Source of the DNA: Escherichia phage finno
Strand: one strand, 5' to 3'
DNA: 64,000 bases
Sequence record: MN850619.1
Shown: one piece after another, positions 1,822-11,598 of the stretch
Layout of the letters: every line of letters begins with the position of its first letter
How positions within the stretch are numbered: position 1 is the stretch's first letter
Notes under the pieces: generated by a model
What the model saw: only the letters and a program-made list of their open reading frames with translations
Databases searched by the model: none
Told to the model about the DNA's origin: nothing
Position numbers and translations under genes: made by a program

Positions 1822-1897
1822 TGGAGAATCCGAAGGGACTTGAACCCTTATAAACCTGTTTTGCAGACAGGCACATATCCATTTCTGTCACGGATTC
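1822..1897 (-). tRNA. tRNA-Cys (anticodon GCA), CCA encoded
   Basis: Reverse-complement T-arm AAGGG-ACTTGAA-CCCTT, acceptor GAATCCG/CGGATTC, anticodon stem CCTGT/ACAGG with loop giving GCA. Confidence 0.8.
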
Positions 1898-1901
1898 AAA
1901 T

Positions 1902-1994
1902 TGGAGGAAGATACCAGACTTGAACTGGTACACCGATTTCTCAGCTACTGGCAGTTTAGCAAACTGCTCCCTTACCTTTTAGGGTTAATCTTCC
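1902..1994 (-). tRNA. tRNA-Ser (anticodon GCU), class II with long variable arm
   Basis: T-arm ACCAG-ACTTGAA-CTGGT, acceptor GGAAGAT/ATCTTCC, anticodon stem GCAGT/ACTGC, 21-nt variable region, 93 nt with CCA. Confidence 0.8.
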
Positions 1995-1995
1995 A

Positions 1996-2730
1996 TTATT
2001 TCTGCAATGCGTTCTTCATTTCTGGTGTTGCAATAGTGTCGATTACACCAGTTTTACAAGCATCATCAAACCAGTCTGGTAAGATACCTGCTAAGAACCC
2101 ATTGATATTCGTTTTAAGGTACTCTGCAATAAGGGCGGCTTCTTCTTCAATCATCTGCACAACTTCATCTGCATAAGCTGTAATCTTTGAGATACCTTCA
2201 TTAATCTTACTAACAGCCTGATTAGCTAAATCAGAAACAGTATCAAGACCCTTATCAATAGCGTCTTGTAAGTCACTTAACACACCGTTAACACTGTCTA
2301 GTGTGCTGTTAATCATGTCAATAGCTTTTTGACCATACTCTGTAGCAACACCCATAATACCACTGAATGGTGTACAACCAACTTGTTCTCCTGCTGCACC
2401 CATAACATTGGAGTATCCCTTTGCTACCTGCATACGTGATGAAAACTCATCAATAGACTTTTGACCATAGTCTGTTAGGGTCTTAGTAGTTGCTGTAGTG
2501 CTTGTCAGGCTTGTTGTAAAGCTGTTTAGAAGGACTGTTGTAAGTCCAGCAGCAACAAGCTTCTCCTTCATTGTAGGGTCTGTTACAGAGCTAATAGAGC
2601 TTACAAGTGATGTAGAGGCAGCTACGGTTCCACCGAGAACTGCTGCACCAGTAATAAGTGGGTTAGAAAACCCTTTACCGGTTTTTAAGAGATTAAAAAT
2701 CTCCTTACCTTGTTCTGTCATCTCTTTCAT
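1996..2730 (-). CDS. Hypothetical Ala/Thr/Ser/Gly-rich protein inside the tRNA cluster
   Basis: ORF track 1996..2793; start trimmed to internal Met (MKEMTEQ...) because the annotated N-terminus overlaps tRNA-Phe; low-complexity T/S/A-rich core. Confidence 0.5.
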   Translation of the reverse strand: MKEMTEQGKEIFNLLKTGKGFSNPLITGAAVLGGTVAASTSLVSSISSVTDPTMKEKLVAAGLTTVLLNSFTTSLTSTTATTKTLTDYGQKSIDEFSSRMQVAKGYSNVMGAAGEQVGCTPFSGIMGVATEYGQKAIDMINSTLDSVNGVLSDLQDAIDKGLDTVSDLANQAVSKINEGISKITAYADEVVQMIEEEAALIAEYLKTNINGFLAGILPDWFDDACKTGVIDTIATPEMKNALQK

Positions 2731-2748
2731 TAAGCACCTTTGAAATTG

Positions 2749-2823
2749 GTAGTCCAGTGGGATTTGAACCCTCTTCTCATGTTTTTCAGACACGCGCTTT
2801 AACCATATAAGCTACTTGGACTA
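2749..2823 (-). tRNA. tRNA-Phe (anticodon GAA), tentative
   Basis: T-loop ATTTGAA, acceptor TAGTCCA/TGGACTA, anticodon loop gives CUGAAAA. Confidence 0.65.
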
Positions 2824-2828
2824 TAAAT

Positions 2829-2905
2829 TGGGGTGACCTACGGGATTTGAACCCGTATAGACCATGTTCACAGCATGGGTCATTACCATTTATGATAAGG
2901 CCACA
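2829..2905 (-). tRNA. tRNA-His (anticodon GUG) with extra 5' G(-1)
   Basis: T-arm ACGGG-ATTTGAA-CCCGT, anticodon stem CCATG/CATGG, loop gives GUG; extra 5' nucleotide consistent with His G-1. Confidence 0.8.
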
Positions 2906-2935
2906 TTTAAGGACTCTCGTAAGAACCCTTAGAAG

Positions 2936-3011
2936 TGGCAGCGGCATAAGGATTTGAACCTTAATAGGACAGCTTCAGAGACTGCTGCATTGCCAGTTAT
3001 GCTATACCGCT
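2936..3011 (-). tRNA. tRNA-Gln (anticodon CUG), tentative
   Basis: T-arm TAAGG-ATTTGAA-CCTTA, D-stem 4/4 pairs, U8/A14/G18G19/A21 present, anticodon loop CUCUGAA. Confidence 0.7.
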
Positions 3012-3016
3012 AAAAT

Positions 3017-3095
3017 TGGTGCTCCATATCGGATTCGAACCGATACATAACACAGATTTTAAGTCTGGCCTCTCTGCCAATTGGAGTAATGGAGC
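3017..3095 (-). tRNA. tRNA, anticodon region reads UAA (Leu-type) but class I length; assignment tentative
   Basis: T-arm ATCGG-ATTCGAA-CCGAT, perfect acceptor GCTCCAT/ATGGAGC, CCA encoded; anticodon loop CUUAAAA; short variable loop. Confidence 0.6.
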
Positions 3096-3097
3096 AT

Positions 3098-3173
3098 TGG
3101 CGGGGGATGTTGGAATTGAACCAACTTCTTCGATTTCAAAGACCGAGGTTTTAACCTTGTAAACTAATCCCCT
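3098..3173 (-). tRNA. tRNA-Gln (anticodon UUG)
   Basis: T-arm GTTGG-AATTGAA-CCAAC, D-stem 4/4, anticodon stem 5/5, loop CUUUGAA. Confidence 0.75.
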
Positions 3174-3181
3174 TTAAATCT

Positions 3182-3739
3182 TTACTTTCTCAGTGGATGA
3201 ATAAAGAATGCCAACATAACTCTTTCCCTTGAGAATGCTCTTTCTTCTGGGACAACACTTTTAAGTTTCCATCCAACATAAATTCTCCAGTAAAACTGTT
3301 TACCAAAGACTTTAATTGATGGGATAAAAGCGAATAATCCCCAAGCATTACTGTTCCACATTAGGAGATAACCAGTCTGATTATCTTCAGGGTTAGAACT
3401 TACGTTGATATTACCTTTCCACTTAGTAACATCTTTTACATCTCTTCCTAATACATGGTAAGAGAAGTTATAAGCTTTGTTTCTCCAGAGCCATCCAACT
3501 CTCTGCATGTAGACACCCAGCTTACCAATCTTTCTAATCTTAGCCCATCTTTTAACGTGGCCTTCATCACCATCAATCTGGTTGTCATAGGTCTCCATCC
3601 ATCTGAATCCAAAAGGTAAGTGTCCTTTCTTTTCACTGTAGAATGGAACTACGAAAGGTGCTAAGATGACTGCTAGGGTTGCTGCAAATGGTTCTAGTAA
3701 AGCTAGGAAAATCCATGAAGCATACTTCAAATATCTCAT
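3182..3739 (-). CDS. Hypothetical membrane protein embedded in tRNA cluster
   Basis: 185 aa ORF with hydrophobic N-terminus (WIFLALLEPFAATLAVILAPFVVPF), flanked by tRNAs without overlap. Confidence 0.5.
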   Translation of the reverse strand: MRYLKYASWIFLALLEPFAATLAVILAPFVVPFYSEKKGHLPFGFRWMETYDNQIDGDEGHVKRWAKIRKIGKLGVYMQRVGWLWRNKAYNFSYHVLGRDVKDVTKWKGNINVSSNPEDNQTGYLLMWNSNAWGLFAFIPSIKVFGKQFYWRIYVGWKLKSVVPEERAFSRERVMLAFFIHPLRK

Positions 3740-3758
3740 CTAAATAGCCTCTTAAAAT

Positions 3759-3836
3759 TGGTGTTCCAAGACGGATTCGAACCGTCACTAATACAAGGTT
3801 TGAGCTTGCATCCTCTGCCAATTGGGATACTGGAAC
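3759..3836 (-). tRNA. tRNA, anticodon region reads CAA (Leu-type) but class I length; tentative
   Basis: T-arm GACGG-ATTCGAA-CCGTC, acceptor GTTCCAA/CTGGAAC, anticodon loop CUCAAAC, 6-nt variable loop. Confidence 0.6.
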
Positions 3837-3837
3837 A

Positions 3838-3912
3838 TGGTACTCACTAAAGGACTTGAACCTTTTTCTTCATCTTGTAAGGGTGATGTTTTACCATATA
3901 AACTAAGCGAGT
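3838..3912 (-). tRNA. tRNA-Val (anticodon UAC), tentative
   Basis: T-arm AAAGG-ACTTGAA-CCTTT, acceptor pairs 7/7 with one G-U, anticodon loop CUUACAA. Confidence 0.65.
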
Positions 3913-4007
3913 GTGAAAGAGGTCTGAAGTTGTGCCGCTAACTCAACTCCGTGGAATTTGTTACGGTCTTCAGTTGACACCAGCGGTCTTTCACTTGACC
4001 TCTGAAT

Positions 4008-4084
4008 TGGTGCTGCTCACAGGACTCGAACCTGCATTTCCATCCTTACAAGGGATGTGTAATAGCCAATTATACGAAAGCAGC
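4008..4084 (-). tRNA. tRNA-Thr (anticodon UGU)
   Basis: T-arm ACAGG-ACTCGAA-CCTGC, perfect anticodon stem CATCC/GGATG, loop CUUGUAA. Confidence 0.8.
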
Positions 4085-4090
4085 ATTGTT

Positions 4091-4165
4091 TGGAGCATCC
4101 AGAGGGAATCGAACCCTCAACCTCAGTTTGGAAGACTGTAATTTTCCCGTTTAAACTATGGATGC
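4091..4165 (-). tRNA. tRNA-Gly (anticodon UCC)
   Basis: T-arm GAGGG-AATCGAA-CCCTC, perfect acceptor GCATCCA/TGGATGC, loop CUUCCAA. Confidence 0.75.
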
Positions 4166-4171
4166 GCTAAT

Positions 4172-4247
4172 TGGTGGAGTCACTGAGAATTGAACTCAGT
4201 TCCCAAGTTTGCAAAACTCGAATTTTAACCATATAAACTATGACCCC
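4172..4247 (-). tRNA. tRNA-Ala (anticodon UGC)
   Basis: T-arm CTGAG-AATTGAA-CTCAG, anticodon stem CAAGT/ACTCG, loop UUUGCAA. Confidence 0.8.
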
Positions 4248-4253
4248 AATGTC

Positions 4254-4329
4254 TGGTACAGGTGGAGGGAATTGAACCCGTCGTCTTACTGATTAAGAGT
4301 CAGCCGCATAACCATTTTGCTACACCTGC
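4254..4329 (-). tRNA. tRNA-Lys (anticodon CUU), tentative
   Basis: T-loop AATTGAA, acceptor ACAGGTG/CACCTGC, anticodon loop CUCUUAA; close paralog of the tRNA at 5569-5644. Confidence 0.65.
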
Positions 4330-4336
4330 ATTAATT

Positions 4337-4414
4337 TGGTAGGAGACAAGGGATTCGAACCCTCAAACATCTCGTTCTAAGCGAGATAGGTTTACCAATT
4401 ACCGTCAACCTCCC
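4337..4414 (-). tRNA. tRNA, anticodon region reads UAG (Leu-type) but class I length; tentative
   Basis: T-arm AAGGG-ATTCGAA-CCCTC, perfect anticodon stem TCTCG/CGAGA with loop CUUAGAA, acceptor pairs with three G-U. Confidence 0.6.
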
Positions 4415-4668
4415 ATTAAGTCTTTTTAGAGAACTTCTAAGAACCTAAGCAACAAGGTTCCACAACAAGCTGTAATAACCTTAGAAGCCCTCTAAAAAGA
4501 CCTAAAAAGGTCTTTGCATAGTCTTGTTTAATCCGGTGACTAGAACCTTTGGAGAGCTTGATATTATCTCTTCTCCGTGACACCTACTAGGTGCTTTATC
4601 AGTGTGTACGACAATACACGAGGGATACCAAAGCAACATCCGAATGAAGCTTGGCTTTAAATCTTATT

Positions 4669-4759
4669 AGGCGGTAAGTAAAGGAGTCGAACCCTCACCG
4701 TATCTCTACAGTGGCAACAGTTTTCAAGACTGTTTGGCTGCCATTAGCCGCTACCTACC
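4669..4759 (-). tRNA. tRNA-Ser (anticodon UGA), class II
   Basis: T-loop AGTCGAA, perfect anticodon stem ACAGT/ACTGT, loop CUUGAAA, about 20-nt variable arm; CCA apparently not encoded. Confidence 0.75.
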
Positions 4760-4772
4760 CCTAATAAGACTT

Positions 4773-4855
4773 TGGCATGGGACGGAGGAGTTGAACCCCT
4801 TTGAAACGGTTTTGGAGGCCGTTGCTCATGCCTTAGAGTCTTAACATCGTCCCAC
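4773..4855 (-). tRNA. tRNA (83 nt with CCA; anticodon not resolved)
   Basis: T-arm GGAGG-AGTTGAA-CCCCT and complementary acceptor ATGGGAC/GTCCCAC; the internal fold could not be resolved by eye. Confidence 0.5.
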
Positions 4856-4997
4856 ACTATAATTCGAAGCTCACCGTATTATCTCAACACTGTAAAGCCC
4901 CTTCTCAGATTATTTACATGTTCTGGAAAACATGAGATACAGACCACCTCCCTACAGGAAGACCCGCTTAGGTCGTCTAAGTAATCTGCTAACTAAT

Positions 4998-5074
4998 TGG
5001 CACACCCTACAGGATTCGAACCTGTAACTAACGATTTAGAAGACCGTTGCTCTATCCAATTGAACTAAGGGTGC
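4998..5074 (-). tRNA. tRNA-Arg (anticodon UCU)
   Basis: T-arm ACAGG-ATTCGAA-CCTGT, anticodon stem ACGAT/ACCGT, loop CUUCUAA. Confidence 0.8.
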
Positions 5075-5410
5075 ATTAATCTTTAAAAACTCTCTTAGAA
5101 AGCCCTTAAAGATGCCCACCTTATTAATCATACCGTGGGCGAGTACGCCAAATTCTTTGATGAGGGATTGGAAGACCTCACTGGTGTTTAGCCTATCAAG
5201 CTACTGCCAGAAAAACATTGTCGTTTGCATTTATTTTAAATTTGCAAAATAGACGCTACGCAACGAAAACTATTCAGAATATGTACAACAAATTTCCCCA
5301 CATTGTGTTACGTCTAACGCTCATGTATTGGTGTTTGAATTATACATATTATGAAGTATTTTAGTTACTATAAAGTAGTCACATCTCAATGTCAACAACT
5401 TTATTGAAAT

Positions 5411-5486
5411 TGGTACTGGTAGGTGGAATCGAACCACCGATGTTCCCTTATCAGGGGAGTGTTATAACCTTCTTAACTATACCAGC
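5411..5486 (-). tRNA. tRNA-Ile (anticodon GAU), tentative
   Basis: T-arm GGTGG-AATCGAA-CCACC, acceptor ACTGGTA/TACCAGC, loop CUGAUAA. Confidence 0.7.
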
Positions 5487-5487
5487 T

Positions 5488-5564
5488 TGGAGGTTCAGAT
5501 GGGAATCGAACCCACATTCATAGGGCTTATGAGACCCTTGCATTACCTTATCTGCGACTGAACC
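5488..5564 (-). tRNA. tRNA with CAU anticodon (Met, initiator or lysidine-Ile not distinguished)
   Basis: T-arm ATGGG-AATCGAA-CCCAC, perfect acceptor GGTTCAG/CTGAACC, loop CUCAUAA. Confidence 0.7.
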
Positions 5565-5568
5565 ATTT

Positions 5569-5644
5569 TGGTAGAAGTGGAGGGATTCGAACCCATCGCC
5601 TGTCAGATTAAAAGTCTGCCGCATCACCATTCTGCTACACTTCC
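5569..5644 (-). tRNA. tRNA-Lys (anticodon UUU), tentative
   Basis: Paralog of the tRNA at 4254-4329; loop CUUUUAA; acceptor AGAAGTG/CACTTCC. Confidence 0.7.
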
Positions 5645-5844
5645 ATTAAATTATCTTTGTAGATAAGCTACCCAGACTTGCTTAAGGTCTGTAGCGATGT
5701 GCCTTTTTGGGTTTAAATCTAGAATTTACCCTTTCACCCTTTGTGGTCGCATACTCACAGGTAAGCTTAATAACTTATCTACAAAGATAATTACCAGACC
5801 GTTGTTTATCATCTTAAGTGCTACCATTACACCAACTCGACCTC

Positions 5845-5920
5845 TGCCGAGTGAAGGAATCGAACCTTCCCATTTTCTTTACCGAGAAATAGATTGTTTA
5901 AGTTTTGCTGTAAACGGTCT
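5845..5920 (-). tRNA. tRNA-like element (canonical T-arm only); possibly degenerate
   Basis: T-arm GAAGG-AATCGAA-CCTTC is present but no complementary 5' acceptor or clean anticodon arm was found. Confidence 0.3.
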
Positions 5921-6075
5921 TCTGTAAATTTGTTGAGCCAGACCAAGTTTTAAATTTTTTCAAAATTGAATTGGCTTGAAAATATCATACGTACTTGCTG
6001 TATTTGGTCTTCTGCTCCTTTAAAGAATACTCGTAAGAACTCTTTAAGGGAGGGGCTAAATAGCCCTCTCAAAAT

Positions 6076-6154
6076 TGGCGGTTACGAAGGGATTTGAACC
6101 CTCATCATCTCCCGTGACAGGGGAGTATTTTAACCAAAATTAAACTACATAACC
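6076..6154 (-). tRNA. tRNA-Asp (anticodon GUC)
   Basis: T-arm AAGGG-ATTTGAA-CCCTC, perfect anticodon stem CTCCC/GGGAG, loop CUGUCAC. Confidence 0.8.
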
Positions 6155-6159
6155 TTTAT

Positions 6160-6247
6160 TGGTGTGCCGTGTAGGAGTCGAACCTACCGAGTCTCAATGA
6201 CAAGGGATTTACAGTCCCCACCGCTACCATCTACGGGATAACGACAC
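6160..6247 (-). tRNA. tRNA-Tyr (anticodon GUA), class II
   Basis: T-arm GTAGG-AGTCGAA-CCTAC, 15-nt variable arm, anticodon stem AGGGA/TCCCC, loop CUGUAAA. Confidence 0.75.
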
Positions 6248-6316
6248 ATTTAATTTCTATTCAGGCTAAGGACTTGCACCTTACAAATCGGTGAGCAATC
6301 GCTTCTCTCCTAAATT

Positions 6317-6393
6317 TGGCGGTTAGTCAGGGATTCGAACCCTGTGCCATTCGCTTAACAGGCGACCGCACATACCTTATGTGCTTCCTAACC
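6317..6393 (-). tRNA. tRNA-Asn (anticodon GUU)
   Basis: T-arm CAGGG-ATTCGAA-CCCTG, loop CUGUUAA. Confidence 0.75.
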
Positions 6394-6476
6394 ATGTTTA
6401 GTATTACCAGACCGTATCTTTCAATTTTTCCGCTAAAAATTTAATAAATATTGCTGTAAACGGTCTTCTGTAAATT

Positions 6477-6553
6477 TGGAGGCGGGTGCAGGAGTCGAAC
6501 CTGCCGATACCATGCTAATGAGACATGTGAGACGCCCTTTCTCTATACCCGCA
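6477..6553 (-). tRNA. Second tRNA with CAU anticodon (Met/fMet/Ile2 not distinguished)
   Basis: T-arm GCAGG-AGTCGAA-CCTGC, anticodon stem CATGC/ACATG, loop CUCAUUA; apparent U1-C72 mismatch. Confidence 0.6.
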
Positions 6554-6644
6554 ATTCTTAATGACCAGACCAAATCTCTTCTTTGTCCGATTTACCTTCA
6601 GATGAATAAGATTAAGTTTGCTGTAATTGGTCTTCTGTCAAAAC

Positions 6645-6722
6645 TGGCGTTCCAGAAGGGATTTGAACCCTCAGATATCCACTTTGAAAGAGTGGTGACT
6701 TTACCATTTTGTCTACTGGAAC
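6645..6722 (-). tRNA. tRNA-Glu (anticodon UUC)
   Basis: T-arm AAGGG-ATTTGAA-CCCTC, perfect acceptor GTTCCAG/CTGGAAC, perfect anticodon stem CCACT/AGTGG, loop CUUUCAA. Confidence 0.8.
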
Positions 6723-6729
6723 ATTAATT

Positions 6730-6806
6730 TGGTCTCTGTTGGAGGACTTGAACCTCCGGCCTTACCGCCCCAAACGGAACGCTCTACCAAGCTGAGCTAA
6801 ACAGAG
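6730..6806 (-). tRNA. tRNA-Pro (anticodon UGG)
   Basis: T-arm GGAGG-ACTTGAA-CCTCC, perfect acceptor and D-stem, loop UUUGGGG with G37. Confidence 0.8.
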
Positions 6807-6971: not shown

Positions 6972-8387
6972 TTACCAGATATAACGGTCAATCATTACTG
7001 CTTTGAGCATTACGCTGATTGGGTCAAACTTCTCACCACCAAGTAGAGCTTTTAAAGTGGCTGGAGAGAAACCAGATACCATTGCTACACCGTTATCCTT
7101 AACAGATACTTCGCAAGTGCCATTACGGTTTGCTAAGTACCAGAATACCAATTGTGGCATCTCATATCCAGCTTTTTTGTACTTGCTCTGAATTGCTTCA
7201 AAGTTTGTACGACCGTTAGCTCCATCAACCTGATTGAACTCCATATCAGAGAAGATGATAAGCTTACTTGGCATATCTTTCTGAGTCAAGTTGTTTCTTT
7301 TACCTGTCTCAAGAATGCGGTCAAAAGCTGCTTGTAAGTTAGTTGAGCCATATTCAACGTGTCGCATCACCTGACGATGACGGTTTCGTAAATCACCACT
7401 CAGTTCGATGAAGTGAGGGTTTGTTGAATAAACCATTAACTCGTTCTTAAAGCAACCTGTATTGCGTTCTGCTACATACAATGCAAGTGATACACCAATA
7501 TCAAGAGCAGTAATTGAACCAAAATTCACCCAAGACATTGAGCTTGAAACATCAGTCATACACAAGATGTTTTCACCTTCTGCCATCCAGTTTGGTAGTG
7601 CTTTCCACTGCTCATTGGCAACATCTGCATTACCATGCTTGATAGACTTAATCACATCGTATGGGTAAACAGCACCAGCGTTAATCTTAGTCTCACCTTT
7701 TGATAAGGACTCAATGTAAGCTTTGTAGCGTTCTCCATCTTTACGGTTAAACAGTTTTTGGTAACGTGCAGCAGCAAGTGAAGGAATCTTACTGTAGTCA
7801 ATCTTACCAAACTCATTAGCAGAGATTTTTTGCTCAACTGTATCAGATAGTGCAGACAACAGTGTGCGGTACTCTTTCTCACTCAAGTTGGCAAACTTGC
7901 AGAAACGTTTTACAAACTGTTTGTGACGTGGTTTGACTCGTGGTAACCACTTAGCTGCCAAACCTGCTGTTGCAGGGTCTAGTAATGCTGCTTCTAAATG
8001 TTTGAAGGCATCTGTCTCGAAGCGAGTGCCTACGAAGATTTTGAAGTCATCAAAACGACCAAGTTCTGCAATCTTATCCATAATGCGAAGAACCTGTGTA
8101 GGCTCTAAAACTTTATCTTCAATTGCCTGAAGCAAAACAGTTCTGAAGGCTTTACGCTCACCCATACCCTCTCGTACATCTCGCATATGCAGTAAAATAC
8201 GAACTGCAACATCAACATCCTCACGCAAAGCTTTGTAGAACAGGTCTGGTAAGATTTCTACGTTGCTACGGCTTGAACCAGCAGCTTTGTAAAAGTCCAC
8301 AAGAGCAGACATTGATGAAGTATGGTTTACAGCACCATTTTCAGTTCGACCTGCATGAAGGTGCGCATGTTTAAATAATTCGCTCAT
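6972..8387 (-). CDS. vWA-domain protein (MIDAS-like DVSSSMS); possibly DUF2828/TROVE (Ro60)-like
   Basis: 471 aa ORF; N-terminal TENGA...SALVDFYKAAGS stretch and a central DxSxS metal-site motif followed by a vWA-like region; family assignment from motif recollection only. Confidence 0.5.
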   Translation of the reverse strand: MSELFKHAHLHAGRTENGAVNHTSSMSALVDFYKAAGSSRSNVEILPDLFYKALREDVDVAVRILLHMRDVREGMGERKAFRTVLLQAIEDKVLEPTQVLRIMDKIAELGRFDDFKIFVGTRFETDAFKHLEAALLDPATAGLAAKWLPRVKPRHKQFVKRFCKFANLSEKEYRTLLSALSDTVEQKISANEFGKIDYSKIPSLAAARYQKLFNRKDGERYKAYIESLSKGETKINAGAVYPYDVIKSIKHGNADVANEQWKALPNWMAEGENILCMTDVSSSMSWVNFGSITALDIGVSLALYVAERNTGCFKNELMVYSTNPHFIELSGDLRNRHRQVMRHVEYGSTNLQAAFDRILETGKRNNLTQKDMPSKLIIFSDMEFNQVDGANGRTNFEAIQSKYKKAGYEMPQLVFWYLANRNGTCEVSVKDNGVAMVSGFSPATLKALLGGEKFDPISVMLKAVMIDRYIW

Positions 8388-10096: not shown

Positions 10097-10468
10097 ATGA
10101 AAGCTAAGAGTGCAAAAGACTTTTATTGCTTCCTACAATCCTATATCAATTCCGTGCAAAATGGTGAAAGGTACAGCCTTAATGATGTTATCCCAACACC
10201 TTTGACATGGAGACTCAGCAAATGGCCTGAAGAAGATATTACACCAACAATCGAACAGCGCACCTACAAACCTGAAATCAATATTCCAGACTCTGAGAAT
10301 CTATTATATCCAATGTTCCATATTGTTGGTCTTGGAAGATTCCTTATGGATATCCAGTATGTAATTGGTAAAGGTTATAAGGTTAAAGGCATTGTTGTTG
10401 GTGATGTATCTCCACACCACAAAGGTTATTTTAGACTAAACGCACATTTAGAGGCTAAAAAGAAATGA
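10097..10468 (+). CDS. Hypothetical protein, paralog of the N-terminal module of the downstream Ig-like protein
   Basis: 123 aa; aligns by eye with residues 1-110 of the 10465..11598 product (shared FMDLQY motif). Confidence 0.55.
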   Translation: MKAKSAKDFYCFLQSYINSVQNGERYSLNDVIPTPLTWRLSKWPEEDITPTIEQRTYKPEINIPDSENLLYPMFHIVGLGRFLMDIQYVIGKGYKVKGIVVGDVSPHHKGYFRLNAHLEAKKK

Positions 10469-11598
10469 TTAAAGCAAAGACTTACCCAGACTTCAAAGAG
10501 TTTGTGAAGGGCTTCATTGCAAACGTAAAAGCTGGTAAGAGATATGATTTTAGAACATATCAAGAGGCTATTTTACCGCTTACCTACAGTTCGTATTGGC
10601 CTGAAGCTGATATTGCAGAAGTTGAGGAGTTTGACTACAAACCAGACTACAAAGTTCCATTTAGTGATGAGTTGCTTTACAGCATCGGTGCTCAAATGAG
10701 AACTTCTGACTTCTTCATGGACTTACAATATGCAATTATCAATGGTAAAGACGTTGATACAGTTTATTGTGAATGGCTGGCAAGAGTTAAACCATTCTCA
10801 ATGTTGAATGCTAAGTTGAAGGACGCTATCAAGCCACCATCAATTACTCAGCAACCAACCAATCAAACAGTAAATGAAGGTGGTACACTTACCCTAAGCA
10901 TTATTGCAACTAATGCCACTGGATATCAATGGAAAAAGGATGGTGAGGATATCACTAGCGCCACATCTGCAACCTACACAAAACAGTCTGTAGCACCTTC
11001 TGATGCTGGTTCATACACTTGTGTTGTATCTGGAGAGGCTGGGACAAGTGTTACCTCAGATGCGGCAACAGTCACTGTCAACGCACTACCTGTGATTACA
11101 CAACAACCTTCTAGCCAGACCATCAATGAGGGTGGAAACATCAACTTGGAAGTGACTGCAACAGGTGCAACAGGTTACCAATGGAAGAAAGATGGCTCTG
11201 ACATTCCTTCAGCTACAAATGCTACCTATAGCAAGTCTGGTGCGCTGCCAGCAGATGCAGGCTCATACACTTGCGTTGTAACAGGTGCGGGTGGTGCAGT
11301 GACATCTAATGCTGCTGTAGTAACTGTGAACGTACTTCCAGTAATTACTCAACAGCCAACCAATCAAGAAATCACTGAAGGTGAGACCTTAACGTTGAAT
11401 GTTGTGGCAACTGGTGCAACAGGCTACCAGTGGAAGAAAGGTGAGGAAGACATCCTCGATGCAACTACTGCAACTTACACCAAAGAAGGTGCAACCGCTG
11501 CTGATGCAGGAAGCTACACCTGTGTAGTTACTGGTGCAGGTGGCTCTGTCACATCTAACGCAGCAACAGTTACTGTTAACCCAGCAGGGGAGGCATAA
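10465..11598 (+). CDS. Ig-like repeat protein (three tandem Ig-like domains), possible virion decoration/adhesin
   Basis: 377 aa; three ~80-aa repeats each with ITQQP..N.GG.L.L...ATGATGYQWKKDG...AT...DAGSYTCVV.G..G.VTS.AA.VTVN. Confidence 0.6.
   Translation: MIKAKTYPDFKEFVKGFIANVKAGKRYDFRTYQEAILPLTYSSYWPEADIAEVEEFDYKPDYKVPFSDELLYSIGAQMRTSDFFMDLQYAIINGKDVDTVYCEWLARVKPFSMLNAKLKDAIKPPSITQQPTNQTVNEGGTLTLSIIATNATGYQWKKDGEDITSATSATYTKQSVAPSDAGSYTCVVSGEAGTSVTSDAATVTVNALPVITQQPSSQTINEGGNINLEVTATGATGYQWKKDGSDIPSATNATYSKSGALPADAGSYTCVVTGAGGAVTSNAAVVTVNVLPVITQQPTNQEITEGETLTLNVVATGATGYQWKKGEEDILDATTATYTKEGATAADAGSYTCVVTGAGGSVTSNAATVTVNPAGEA

What the first reader, a model, noticed from the sequence alone, without database searches (positions are those of the whole stretch)
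3017..4414. Three tRNAs with Leu-type anticodons (UAA, CAA, UAG) appear to fold as class I molecules
By hand folding, the tRNAs at 3017-3095, 3759-3836 and 4337-4414 have anticodon loops reading UAA, CAA and UAG but total lengths of 75-76 nt with 5-7-nt variable loops, whereas the Ser and Tyr tRNAs in the same cluster show the expected long variable arm. If real, these would be structurally unusual Leu decoders or tRNAs with altered identity; UAA and UAG anticodons are also one position away from suppressor-like readings. This may simply be a hand-folding error.
Basis: inference. Interest (0 to 1): 0.4.

Follow-up and report, generated by a model that had tools for sequence, protein, structure and literature searches.

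The report
Short-armed leucine tRNAs in a phage
Three leucine tRNA genes of this Felix O1-like phage do lack the long extra arm that their host's leucine tRNAs carry, but this is a common and little-noticed habit of phage tRNA sets, not a sign of altered or stop-codon decoding.

Summary
ARAGORN, the Rfam tRNA model and tRNAscan-SE annotations in GenBank all call tRNA-Leu(UAA), (CAA) and (UAG) at exactly the stated coordinates on the minus strand. Each is 75-76 nt plus an encoded CCA, with a variable loop of 5-7 nt. The Ser and Tyr tRNAs of the same array, and the host E. coli tRNA-Leu genes (85-87 nt), keep long arms.

The window is a Felixounavirus (~98% identical to Felix O1), whose three Leu genes have been listed since 2010. 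Apart from the missing arm they are typical bacterial tRNA-Leu: A73, A14, A15:U48, G18G19, A20a, and a 3-bp D stem with a 9-11-nt D loop. These are the features E. coli LeuRS is reported to use; the long arm is reported to be dispensable. The anticodons read UUR and CUN leucine codons, not stop codons.

The trait is not peculiar to this phage. It occurs across Ounavirinae and in unrelated phages of E. coli, Cronobacter, Vibrio, Enterococcus and Mycobacterium. It made up about 29% of tRNA-Leu-like matches in an IMG/VR sample, and it occurs in many Actinomycetota chromosomes.

Best reading: ordinary leucine-decoding tRNAs of the "type I" kind, charged by host LeuRS. Charging is inferred, not shown.

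The parts
3017..3095 (-). tRNA-Leu(UAA), 76 nt plus encoded CCA. Variable loop is 7 nt (GUUAUGU, U48). A73. D arm is CUC|CAAUUGGCAGA|GAG. There is a C27.U43 mismatch at the top of the anticodon stem.
   Evidence: ARAGORN; Rfam tRNA 49.8 bits; listed for Felix O1 as Leu(3) TAA, Cove score 57.88
3759..3836 (-). tRNA-Leu(CAA), 75 nt plus encoded CCA. Variable loop is 5-6 nt (AUUAGU, U48). A73. D arm is UCC|CAAUUGGCAGA|GGA. The anticodon loop is CUCAAAC.
   Evidence: ARAGORN; Rfam tRNA 44.0 bits; at least 99% identical in 159 phage records; Felix O1 Leu(2) CAA, Cove score 46.15
4337..4414 (-). tRNA-Leu(UAG), 75 nt plus encoded CCA. Variable loop is 4-5 nt (UGUUU, U48). A73 and a G1.U72 pair. The D arm is GGU|AAUUGGUAA|ACC, with an irregular 3-4-nt junction between the acceptor and D stems. 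The anticodon loop is CUUAGAA, with A37 where the host has G37.
   Evidence: ARAGORN; Rfam tRNA 41.9 bits; compensatory anticodon-stem changes in phage Sf13; Felix O1 Leu TAG, Cove score 52.24
1822..6806 (-). The tRNA array that holds the three genes: 25 tRNA genes, all on the minus strand, interrupted by two small ORFs (1996-2730 DUF7217; 3182-3739 DUF7338).
1902..1994 (-). tRNA-Ser(GCU), 93 nt, with a long variable stem-loop. Class II comparator in the same array.
4670..4759 (-). tRNA-Ser(UGA), 90 nt, with a long variable stem-loop. Class II comparator.
6160..6247 (-). tRNA-Tyr(GUA), 88 nt, with a variable stem-loop. Class II comparator.

Best explanation
These are three genuine, functional leucine tRNAs of the short-variable-loop ('type I') kind, carried in the tRNA array of a Felix O1-like phage. 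They are transcribed with the array and matured by host enzymes; the CCA end is genome-encoded. They are leucylated by the host (Salmonella or E. coli) LeuRS. That enzyme is reported to recognise A73 and the D-loop/T-loop elbow (A14, A15:U48, G18G19, A20a) and not to need the long arm or the anticodon. They then read UUA/UUG, UUG and CUA/CUG (possibly CUU), codons that this 39%-GC phage uses much more than its host does. The long arm could be lost because bacterial LeuRS does not depend on it, whereas SerRS and TyrRS do depend on theirs, so Ser and Tyr tRNAs keep them. Shown here: gene presence, fold, conservation, covariation, retained identity nucleotides, phage codon usage, wide occurrence of the type, and no synthetase among the seven largest ORFs of the window. 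Inferred: expression, charging by host LeuRS, and the reason for arm loss.
For: Three detection methods agree on isotype and anticodon: ARAGORN, the Rfam covariance model, and tRNAscan-SE as recorded in GenBank and by Whichard 2010. All three genes have A73, U48, A14A15, G18G19 and A20a. Two have a 3-bp D stem with an 11-nt D loop of the same layout as E. coli leuZ/leuW/leuX; Leu(UAG) has a 9-nt loop. Review PMC9976931 states that for E. coli LeuRS neither the long arm nor the anticodon is crucial, that A73, A15-U48, G18G19 and A20a are, and that variants lacking the variable arm remain active. The genes are nearly invariant in more than 250 Ounavirinae records and show compensatory stem changes. 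Covariation across 148 unique phage type I tRNA-Leu gives 97.8% canonical pairing against 42-47% for shifted controls. Among 136 unique viral type I tRNA-Leu, U48 is present in 136, A73 in 128 and an encoded CCA in 99. Type I tRNA-Leu also occurs in other phages of enterobacteria and vibrios: 4MG, LPCS28 and Thalassa. Repeated maintenance in hosts with E. coli-type LeuRS argues that they are usable there. Leu codon shares in the window's ORFs are UUA 24%, UUG 15%, CUU 27%, CUA 11% and CUG 15%. From my own knowledge, E. coli uses about 50% CUG and about 4% CUA. Whichard 2010 names Leu[TTA] among the codons helped by phage tRNAs. None of the seven largest ORFs of the window (471-909 aa), the only ones near LeuRS size, has an aminoacyl-tRNA synthetase domain. 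Ser and Tyr tRNAs keep long arms both here and in the IMG/VR loci that carry type I Leu.
Against: I found no expression, modification or aminoacylation data for these tRNAs. Fan et al. 2019 (PMC6614811) report that E. coli LeuRS did not leucylate the natural type I tRNA-Leu(CAA) of Streptomyces coelicolor, and they describe EcLeuRS as charging only type II. That tRNA has C48 rather than U48, which may matter, but this is my inference. The folds are not strong: 3-bp A/U-containing D stems, a C27.U43 mismatch in Leu(UAA), an irregular 8-10 junction in Leu(UAG), and MFE z-scores of only -1.1 to -2.0. Codon compensation is correlative. CUU, the most-used Leu codon here, has no dedicated GAG or AAG tRNA. 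The window covers about 64 of about 86 kb, so a synthetase elsewhere in the genome is excluded only by the published annotation.
Confidence: 0.8

Rival explanations
1. Arm loss is adaptive counter-defence. Lacking the type II architecture, the phage tRNA-Leu species would escape a host, prophage or phage-encoded factor (tRNase or modifying toxin) that recognises long-armed tRNA-Leu. Leucine decoding would then continue when host tRNA-Leu is inactivated. This can coexist with the main explanation.
For: The trait recurs in unrelated phage families and made up about 29% of tRNA-Leu-like matches in an IMG/VR sample, while the E. coli host genes examined are all type II. Some viral type I genes have type II neighbours with 86-88% identical cores, which hints at repeated independent loss. 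Phage tRNAs are known to evade anticodon nucleases through loop changes (PMC10264068), and these Leu tRNAs also differ from host loops at positions 32, 37 and 38. Eukaryotic SLFN11 prefers type II tRNAs, and Schlafen nucleases act in bacterial defence.
Against: No bacterial nuclease that depends on the long arm of tRNA-Leu is known to me. The bacterial Schlafens characterised in the two 2026 papers cut the anticodon arm or the T loop of many tRNAs and are not reported as type II specific. Ser and Tyr tRNAs in the same arrays keep their arms. 38 IMG/VR loci carry both types of Leu. Relaxed constraint is a sufficient explanation.
Confidence: 0.12
2. The three genes are decaying or non-translational tRNA-like elements (for example processing signals or decoys) that are not aminoacylated. 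Their Leu anticodons would be relics.
For: E. coli LeuRS did not charge the one natural bacterial type I tRNA-Leu tested. The D stems are weak, there are mismatches, and thermodynamic z-scores are modest. tRNAscan-SE flagged other tRNAs of the Felix O1 array (Tyr, His) as 'pseudo'.
Against: All three were called as normal tRNAs with Cove scores of 46-58 and 42-50 bits in Rfam. They keep every leucine identity nucleotide, an encoded CCA and intact T loops. They are nearly invariant across several genera, with compensatory changes in stems. The same architecture is a lone chromosomal tRNA-Leu in many Actinomycetota, and it is a working, chargeable tRNA in S. coelicolor.
Confidence: 0.05
3. The tRNAs have an altered identity (charged with another amino acid) or act as nonsense suppressors.
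For: Only the atypical class I shape for a Leu anticodon supports this.
Against: Anticodons UAA, CAA and UAG pair with UUR and CUN sense codons, not with stop codons. A73 and a Leu-type D arm are present. There is no G3:U70 pair for AlaRS and no long arm for SerRS. Most other synthetases read the anticodon, and these anticodons do not match theirs (identity rules). ORFs in the window end at ordinary stop codons and give full-length Pfam domain matches under the standard code.
Confidence: 0.02

Closest known systems
Type I tRNA-Leu(CAA) of Streptomyces coelicolor (Fan et al., NAR 2019, PMC6614811)
   Same: It is a bacterial-type tRNA-Leu with a 5-nt variable loop that coexists with long-armed tRNA-Leu in the same cell and is charged by a bacterial LeuRS. 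Actinomycetota chromosomal type I tRNA-Leu genes found here share the D arm ..CCCAAUUGGCAGAGG.. with the phage Leu(CAA) and Leu(UAA). They are also among the nearest neighbours of phage Leu(UAA), with core identity of about 0.75.
   Different: The phage genes sit in a phage tRNA array whose host has only type II tRNA-Leu in the genes examined. All three phage isoacceptors are type I. They have U48, whereas the paper gives C48 for the S. coelicolor tRNA. E. coli LeuRS failed on the S. coelicolor tRNA, so charging of the phage tRNAs cannot simply be transferred from that work.
E. coli type II tRNA-Leu (leuZ UAA, leuX CAA, leuW UAG)
   Same: Same anticodons. Same identity nucleotides: A73, A14, A15:U48, G18G19 and A20a. 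Same 3-bp D stem and encoded CCA, and for two of the three phage genes the same 11-nt D loop. leuZ also has a G1.U72 pair, like phage Leu(UAG).
   Different: The host genes are 85-87 nt with 12-15-nt variable regions, against 78-79 nt with 5-7-nt loops in the phage. Anticodon-loop positions 32, 37 and 38 differ; phage Leu(UAG) has A37 where leuW has G37. Core identity to any type II gene in my set is at most 0.64-0.72.
Engineered E. coli tRNA-Leu variants lacking the variable arm (Larkin et al. 2002, Asahara et al. 1993/1998 and Tocchini-Valentini et al. 2000, as summarised in PMC9976931)
   Same: They show that E. coli LeuRS can charge tRNA-Leu without the long arm, provided A73 and the D/T-loop tertiary contacts are intact. 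The phage tRNAs look like natural versions of such constructs.
   Different: Those are laboratory constructs derived from host tRNA. I could not read the primary papers. The kinetics of natural phage type I tRNAs are unknown.
Animal mitochondrial tRNA-Leu(UUR)
   Same: It is a short-variable-loop tRNA-Leu whose identity rests on A73 and A14.
   Different: It has a reduced, floppy mitochondrial structure and a dedicated mitochondrial LeuRS, and it is unrelated in sequence. The phage tRNAs keep canonical D and T loops.
Long-armed phage tRNA-Leu, for example T5 tRNA-Leu(UAG)
   Same: It is a phage-encoded tRNA-Leu in a large tRNA array of an E. coli phage.
   Different: The T5 gene is 85 nt and type II. 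Arm loss is therefore frequent in phages but not universal.

Membership tests
tRNA (Rfam RF00005) | Score above the curated gathering threshold of the tRNA covariance model, with a full-length match. | tested here: met
   49.8, 44.0 and 41.9 bits against a gathering score of 29, covering model positions 1-71 of 71 (alignment). ARAGORN cloverleaves agree.
tRNA (Rfam RF00005) | The four helices of the cloverleaf are supported by covariation in related sequences. | tested here: met
   148 unique short-armed phage tRNA-Leu: 97.8% canonical cells and 5.0 canonical pair types per pair, against 42-47% for partners shifted by 1-2 columns. The alignment was made with MAFFT and was not fitted to the structure.
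Bacterial (E. coli-type) tRNA-Leu identity | Anticodon NAA or NAG. | tested here: met
   UAA, CAA and UAG.
Bacterial (E. coli-type) tRNA-Leu identity | Discriminator A73. | tested here: met
   All three end in ACCA.
Bacterial (E. coli-type) tRNA-Leu identity | Elbow and core elements: U8:A14, A15:U48, G18G19 placement, A20a, and a T loop with U54, U55, C56 and A58. | tested here: met
   The D loops are CAAUUGGCAGA (two genes) and AAUUGGUAA. The last variable nucleotide is U in all three. The T loop is UUCGAAU. The element list comes from PMC9976931.
Bacterial (E. coli-type) tRNA-Leu identity | Leucylation by LeuRS. | not testable with these tools
   This needs an aminoacylation assay or charged-tRNA sequencing. 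The literature is split: arm-less E. coli constructs are active, but E. coli LeuRS is inactive on S. coelicolor type I Leu(CAA).
Type II (class II) tRNA | Variable region longer than 10 nt, forming an extra stem-loop. | tested here: not met
   The variable regions are 7, 5-6 and 4-5 nt, and total lengths through the discriminator are 75-76 nt. No extra hairpin appears with ARAGORN, Rfam or MFE folding.
Type I tRNA-Leu (short-variable-loop Leu, as in S. coelicolor CAA) | A Leu anticodon together with a short variable loop (4-5 nt in the described case) in an otherwise canonical cloverleaf. | tested here: met
   Leu(UAA), at 7 nt, lies at the upper edge. In the 148-sequence set loop lengths are 5 nt (127), 6 nt (13), 7 nt (6) and 9 nt (2).
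Nonsense-suppressor tRNA | Anticodon CUA, UUA or UCA, complementary to a stop codon. | tested here: not met
   The anticodons are UAA, CAA and UAG, read 5' to 3', and are complementary to UUA, UUG and CUA.

The most novel reading that the evidence does not exclude
Loss of the long variable arm from tRNA-Leu is a recurrent, selected phage strategy and not neutral decay. It would make phage tRNA-Leu invisible to some factor that acts on long-armed host tRNA-Leu, such as a defence or competitor tRNase or toxin, or the phage's own host-shutoff activity. Leucine codons of phage genes would then stay readable when host tRNA-Leu is disabled. As a corollary, enterobacterial LeuRS would efficiently charge natural type I tRNA-Leu, contrary to the published generalisation that it charges only type II.
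Probability: 0.12. Interest if true: 0.7.

Novelty: new member of a known kind. Interest (0 to 1): 0.38.

Why it matters
Textbooks treat bacterial tRNA-Leu as long-armed (type II). The one biochemical study of a bacterial type I tRNA-Leu presents it as a Streptomyces peculiarity and reports that E. coli LeuRS cannot charge it.

Here an E. coli/Salmonella phage carries only type I tRNA-Leu. The same architecture turns up in several unrelated phage families and in many Actinomycetota chromosomes. That gives a simple, testable question: does enterobacterial LeuRS charge natural short-armed tRNA-Leu, and how well?

It also matters practically. Annotation pipelines and isotype models may score such genes lower or label them 'other'. 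One close relative (Salmonella phage ST11) annotates two tRNAs in this stretch as 'tRNA-OTHER' and only two as tRNA-Leu.

For this window alone, however, the finding is an already annotated trio of ordinary leucine tRNAs. There is no recoding.

Tried and rejected
1. MFE folding of the three sequences gave cloverleaf-like folds for CAA and UAG but not for UAA, with z-scores of only -1.1 to -2.0. It is uninformative for unmodified tRNAs and I did not use it as positive evidence.

They therefore give proportions within a sample, not totals. They also see only tRNA-Leu with an AAUUGG D loop. I could not run a type II control scan on bacterial genomes because only one scan was allowed.

3. A second representative type I sequence (D arm GAC|AAAUUGGUAAA|GUC) found nothing in the named-phage collection.

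4. Nearest-neighbour comparison of variable-arm-free cores weakly places Leu(UAA) and Leu(CAA) with other type I genes rather than with host-like type II genes. At about 70 nt it cannot resolve single versus multiple origins, and Leu(UAG) is ambiguous.

5. Five literature searches found no description of short-armed tRNA-Leu in phages. The library lacks most subscription journals, and Larkin 2002 could not be opened.

6. I considered bacterial Schlafen nucleases as possible arm-dependent effectors. The two 2026 papers report anticodon-arm or T-loop cleavage of many tRNAs, not type II specificity.

7. I looked for a phage-encoded LeuRS among the seven largest ORFs of the window; none has a synthetase domain.

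8. The DUF2828 ORF next to the array has no sequence match in the PDB.
Full report
**What is there.** ARAGORN finds 25 tRNA genes between 1822 and 6806, all on the minus strand.
- tRNA-Leu(UAA), 3017-3095
- tRNA-Leu(CAA), 3759-3836
- tRNA-Leu(UAG), 4337-4414

The Rfam tRNA covariance model matches all three full length at 49.8, 44.0 and 41.9 bits, against a gathering score of 29.

The ARAGORN cloverleaves show:
- 7-bp acceptor stems
- 3-bp D stems
- GGTTCGAATCC T arms
- discriminator A followed by an encoded CCA
- variable regions of 7, 5-6 and 4-5 nt

Lengths through the discriminator are 76, 75 and 75 nt, so a long arm cannot be hidden anywhere. MFE folding shows no extra hairpin either, although it is otherwise uninformative.

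Other tRNAs give the contrast. In the same array, Ser(GCU) is 93 nt, Ser(UGA) 90 nt and Tyr(GUA) 88 nt, all with variable stem-loops. E. coli K-12 leuZ, leuW and leuX, which carry the same three anticodons, are 87, 85 and 85 nt with long arms.

**Where the window comes from.** The region is about 98% identical to Salmonella phage Felix O1 and many relatives. 257 phage records match, mostly Escherichia, Salmonella, Shigella and Citrobacter phages. Whichard et al. 2010 already list the three genes as Leu TAG, CAA and TAA, with Cove scores of 52.2, 46.2 and 57.9. They do not comment on the short arm. GenBank records of relatives annotate them as tRNA-Leu by tRNAscan-SE.

The genes are almost invariant. 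For Leu(CAA), 159 records are at least 99% identical and 89 more are 95-99% identical. Where they do vary, stems change in a compensatory way. The anticodon stem of Leu(UAG) in phage Sf13 is an example.

**Are they leucine tRNAs?** Apart from the missing arm they have the architecture of bacterial tRNA-Leu:
- Leu(UAA) and Leu(CAA) have a 3-bp D stem around an 11-nt D loop reading C13-A14-A15-U16-U17-G18-G19-C20-A20a-G21-A22. This is the same layout as the E. coli genes.
- Leu(UAG) has the same AAUUGGUAA core in a 9-nt loop.
- All three have A73, U at the last variable position (so A15:U48 can form) and a UUCGAAU T loop.

According to the identity review PMC9976931, E. coli LeuRS depends on A73, A15-U48, G18G19, A20a and the D/T-loop contacts. 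It does not depend on the anticodon or the long arm, and variants without the variable arm stay active.

Other synthetases are unlikely to take these tRNAs. None of the three has a G3:U70 pair for AlaRS or a long arm for SerRS. Synthetases that read the anticodon would not accept NAA or NAG.

The anticodons pair with UUA/UUG, UUG and CUN. The 'suppressor-like' remark confuses anticodon with codon.

None of the seven largest ORFs in the window (471-909 aa), the only ones near LeuRS size, has a synthetase domain. The host enzyme must therefore do the charging.

Codon usage fits a supplementing role. In 50 ORFs of the window, the shares among leucine codons are UUA 24%, UUG 15%, CUU 27%, CUC 7%, CUA 11% and CUG 15%. 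From my own knowledge, E. coli uses about half CUG and only about 4% CUA. Whichard et al. single out Leu[TTA] as a codon helped by the phage tRNA.

**How unusual is it?** It is much less unusual than it looks from the host side.

Named phages with short-armed tRNA-Leu:

| Phage | Group | tRNA-Leu |
|---|---|---|
| SUSP2 | Ounavirinae, Suspvirus | UAA, CAA, UAG, all short |
| Sf13 | Ounavirinae, Mooglevirus | UAA, CAA, UAG, all short |
| phiEa104 | Ounavirinae, Kolesnikvirus | CAA, AAG, UAA, all short |
| Yersinia phage P778 | unclassified in its record | UAA, UAG, both short |
| Escherichia phage 4MG | Vequintavirinae | 77 nt |
| Cronobacter phage LPCS28 | Straboviridae | 78 nt |
| Vibrio phage Thalassa | Demerecviridae | 77 nt |
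| Enterococcus phage Bop | Herelleviridae | short UAG next to an 86-nt long-armed UAA |
| Mycobacterium prophage prophiGD54-2 | Vilmaviridae | UAG and CAA, both short |

T5 keeps an 85-nt type II gene.

Pattern scans of IMG/VR give a wider view:
- I used a pattern for an AAUUGG D loop, a Leu anticodon loop and a T arm at type I spacing.
- ARAGORN calls these hits tRNA-Leu.
- With the spacing left open, 42 of 143 matches (29%) and 31 of 120 loci were type I.
- The loci are tRNA-rich and mostly 30-45% GC. Their Ser and Tyr tRNAs keep long arms. 75 loci carry only type I Leu and 38 carry both types.
- Across 136 unique viral type I genes, U48 is present in all, A73 in 128, and the 3-bp D stem in 114.
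- Over 148 unique sequences the short-loop cloverleaf is 97.8% canonically paired, with 5 pair types per position. Shifted controls give 42-47%.

**Cellular genomes.** The same type I pattern hit at least 120 stretches of bacterial genomes. Of the 80 record titles shown, 61 are Actinomycetota, such as Nocardia, Mycobacterium, Rhodococcus, Gordonia, Corynebacterium, Arthrobacter and Bifidobacterium. Most are lone chromosomal tRNA-Leu genes in DNA of 65-70% GC. The anticodons seen are UAA (65), UAG (25), CAA, CAG and GAG. Many share the D arm GCC|CAAUUGGCAGA|GGC.

The published case is tRNA-Leu(CAA) of Streptomyces coelicolor (Fan et al. 2019). That paper presents it as exceptional. It reports that E. 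coli LeuRS did not charge it, and it calls ScoLeuRS the only prokaryotic LeuRS that charges both types. The S. coelicolor tRNA has C48; the phage tRNAs have U48. This could explain a difference in charging, but that is my inference.

**Most likely mechanism.** The three genes are working leucine tRNAs of the type I kind. They are matured from the array transcript, charged by host LeuRS through A73 and the elbow, and used to read UUR and CUN codons that the AT-rich phage favours.

The arm is missing because bacterial LeuRS does not need it. SerRS does need the arm of tRNA-Ser: arm size is its main identity element. From my own knowledge of the T. thermophilus TyrRS-tRNA-Tyr complex, bacterial TyrRS contacts the arm of tRNA-Tyr. 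That accounts for why only Leu lost its arm.

The evidence falls into two groups:
- Shown: fold, conservation, covariation, identity nucleotides, codon usage, and recurrence in phages whose hosts have E. coli-type LeuRS.
- Not shown: expression and charging.

The Fan et al. result is the main reason for caution. I put this explanation at 0.8.

**Rivals.**
- Counter-defence (0.12, compatible with the main explanation). Arm loss might be selected because it hides phage tRNA-Leu from a factor that acts on long-armed tRNA-Leu. The recurrence across phage families, and type I genes whose cores are 86-88% identical to type II genes, fit repeated loss. But no arm-dependent bacterial tRNase is known to me. 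The bacterial Schlafens described in 2026 are not type II specific. Many arrays keep both types.
- Non-charged relics or decoys (0.05). This is hard to square with the intact identity set, the encoded CCA and strong conservation.
- Altered identity or suppression (0.02). The anticodons and identity nucleotides contradict it.

**Novelty and verdict.** The genes are known and annotated, and type I tRNA-Leu is a known kind. What I could not find in five literature searches is any statement that phage tRNA arrays, including those of enterobacterial phages, often carry short-armed tRNA-Leu. I also found no statement that the type is widespread in Actinomycetota beyond Streptomyces CAA.

For this window the finding is a correct structural observation about ordinary leucine tRNAs, with no recoding. 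Its value is the testable question about E. coli LeuRS and the wider pattern it points to. I rate interest at 0.38 and classify it as a new member of a known kind.

Noticed in passing
L220-L339 (bacterial genome loci): Short-armed (type I) tRNA-Leu genes are widespread as lone chromosomal genes in Actinomycetota, which account for 61 of the 80 listed titles. The anticodons are UAA, UAG, CAA, CAG and GAG, and many share the D arm GCC|CAAUUGGCAGA|GGC and variable loops such as CCAGU or ACAGU. The only paper I found treats this as a peculiarity of Streptomyces tRNA-Leu(CAA).
   Followed up: partly
window 6972-8387 (-): The ORF directly flanking the tRNA array (471 aa) matches DUF7788 (E = 2.3e-43) and DUF2828 (E = 1.7e-29). 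Relatives annotate it as 'RNA-binding protein', and it sits next to the array in Sf13 and Yersinia phage P778 too. It has no PDB sequence match. Its function and any link to the tRNAs are unknown.
   Followed up: partly
window 4415-4669, 4760-4997, 5075-5410, 5645-6075: These stretches of 240-430 nt lie inside the tRNA array and have no tRNA call and no ORF of 120 aa or more. Rfam gives only weak sub-threshold tRNA-like hits: tRNA-Sec-like at 4779-4853 (23 bits) and tmRNA-like at 5075-5264 (14.5 bits). They could hold degenerate tRNAs or other stable RNAs, as annotated in the T5 array.
   Followed up: no
window 3174-3758: Felix O1, SUSP2 and Sf13 have a tRNA-Arg(ACG) between Gln(UUG) and Leu(CAA). 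This window has none there, only the DUF7338 ORF at 3182-3739.
   Followed up: no
window 4337-4414 (-), anticodon loop: Phage tRNA-Leu(UAG) has the loop CUUAGAA (C32, A37, A38), where E. coli leuW has UUUAGGU (U32, G37, U38). It therefore lacks G37, which from my own knowledge is the m1G37 site of CUN-reading tRNA-Leu. The Sf14 study also notes three loop differences for this tRNA.
   Followed up: no
L005 5827-6070 and 6303-6650 (Enterococcus phage vB_OCPT_Bop): This phage carries a long-armed tRNA-Leu(UAA) (86 nt) and a short-armed tRNA-Leu(UAG) (76 nt) side by side, followed by an annotated phage-encoded tmRNA. The D arm of its short Leu (UCC|CAACUGGCAGA|GGA) is nearly the same as that of Felix O1 Leu(CAA).
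   Followed up: no
window 10465-11598 (+): A 377-aa ORF is made of three immunoglobulin-like domains (Ig_3, E = 5.8e-34). It is possibly a capsid or tail decoration protein.
   Followed up: no
IMG/VR and other phage type I tRNA-Leu set and window 4337-4414: About half of the short-armed phage tRNA-Leu (68 of 148) have a G1.U72 wobble as the first acceptor pair. Window Leu(UAG) and E. coli leuZ have it too.
   Followed up: no
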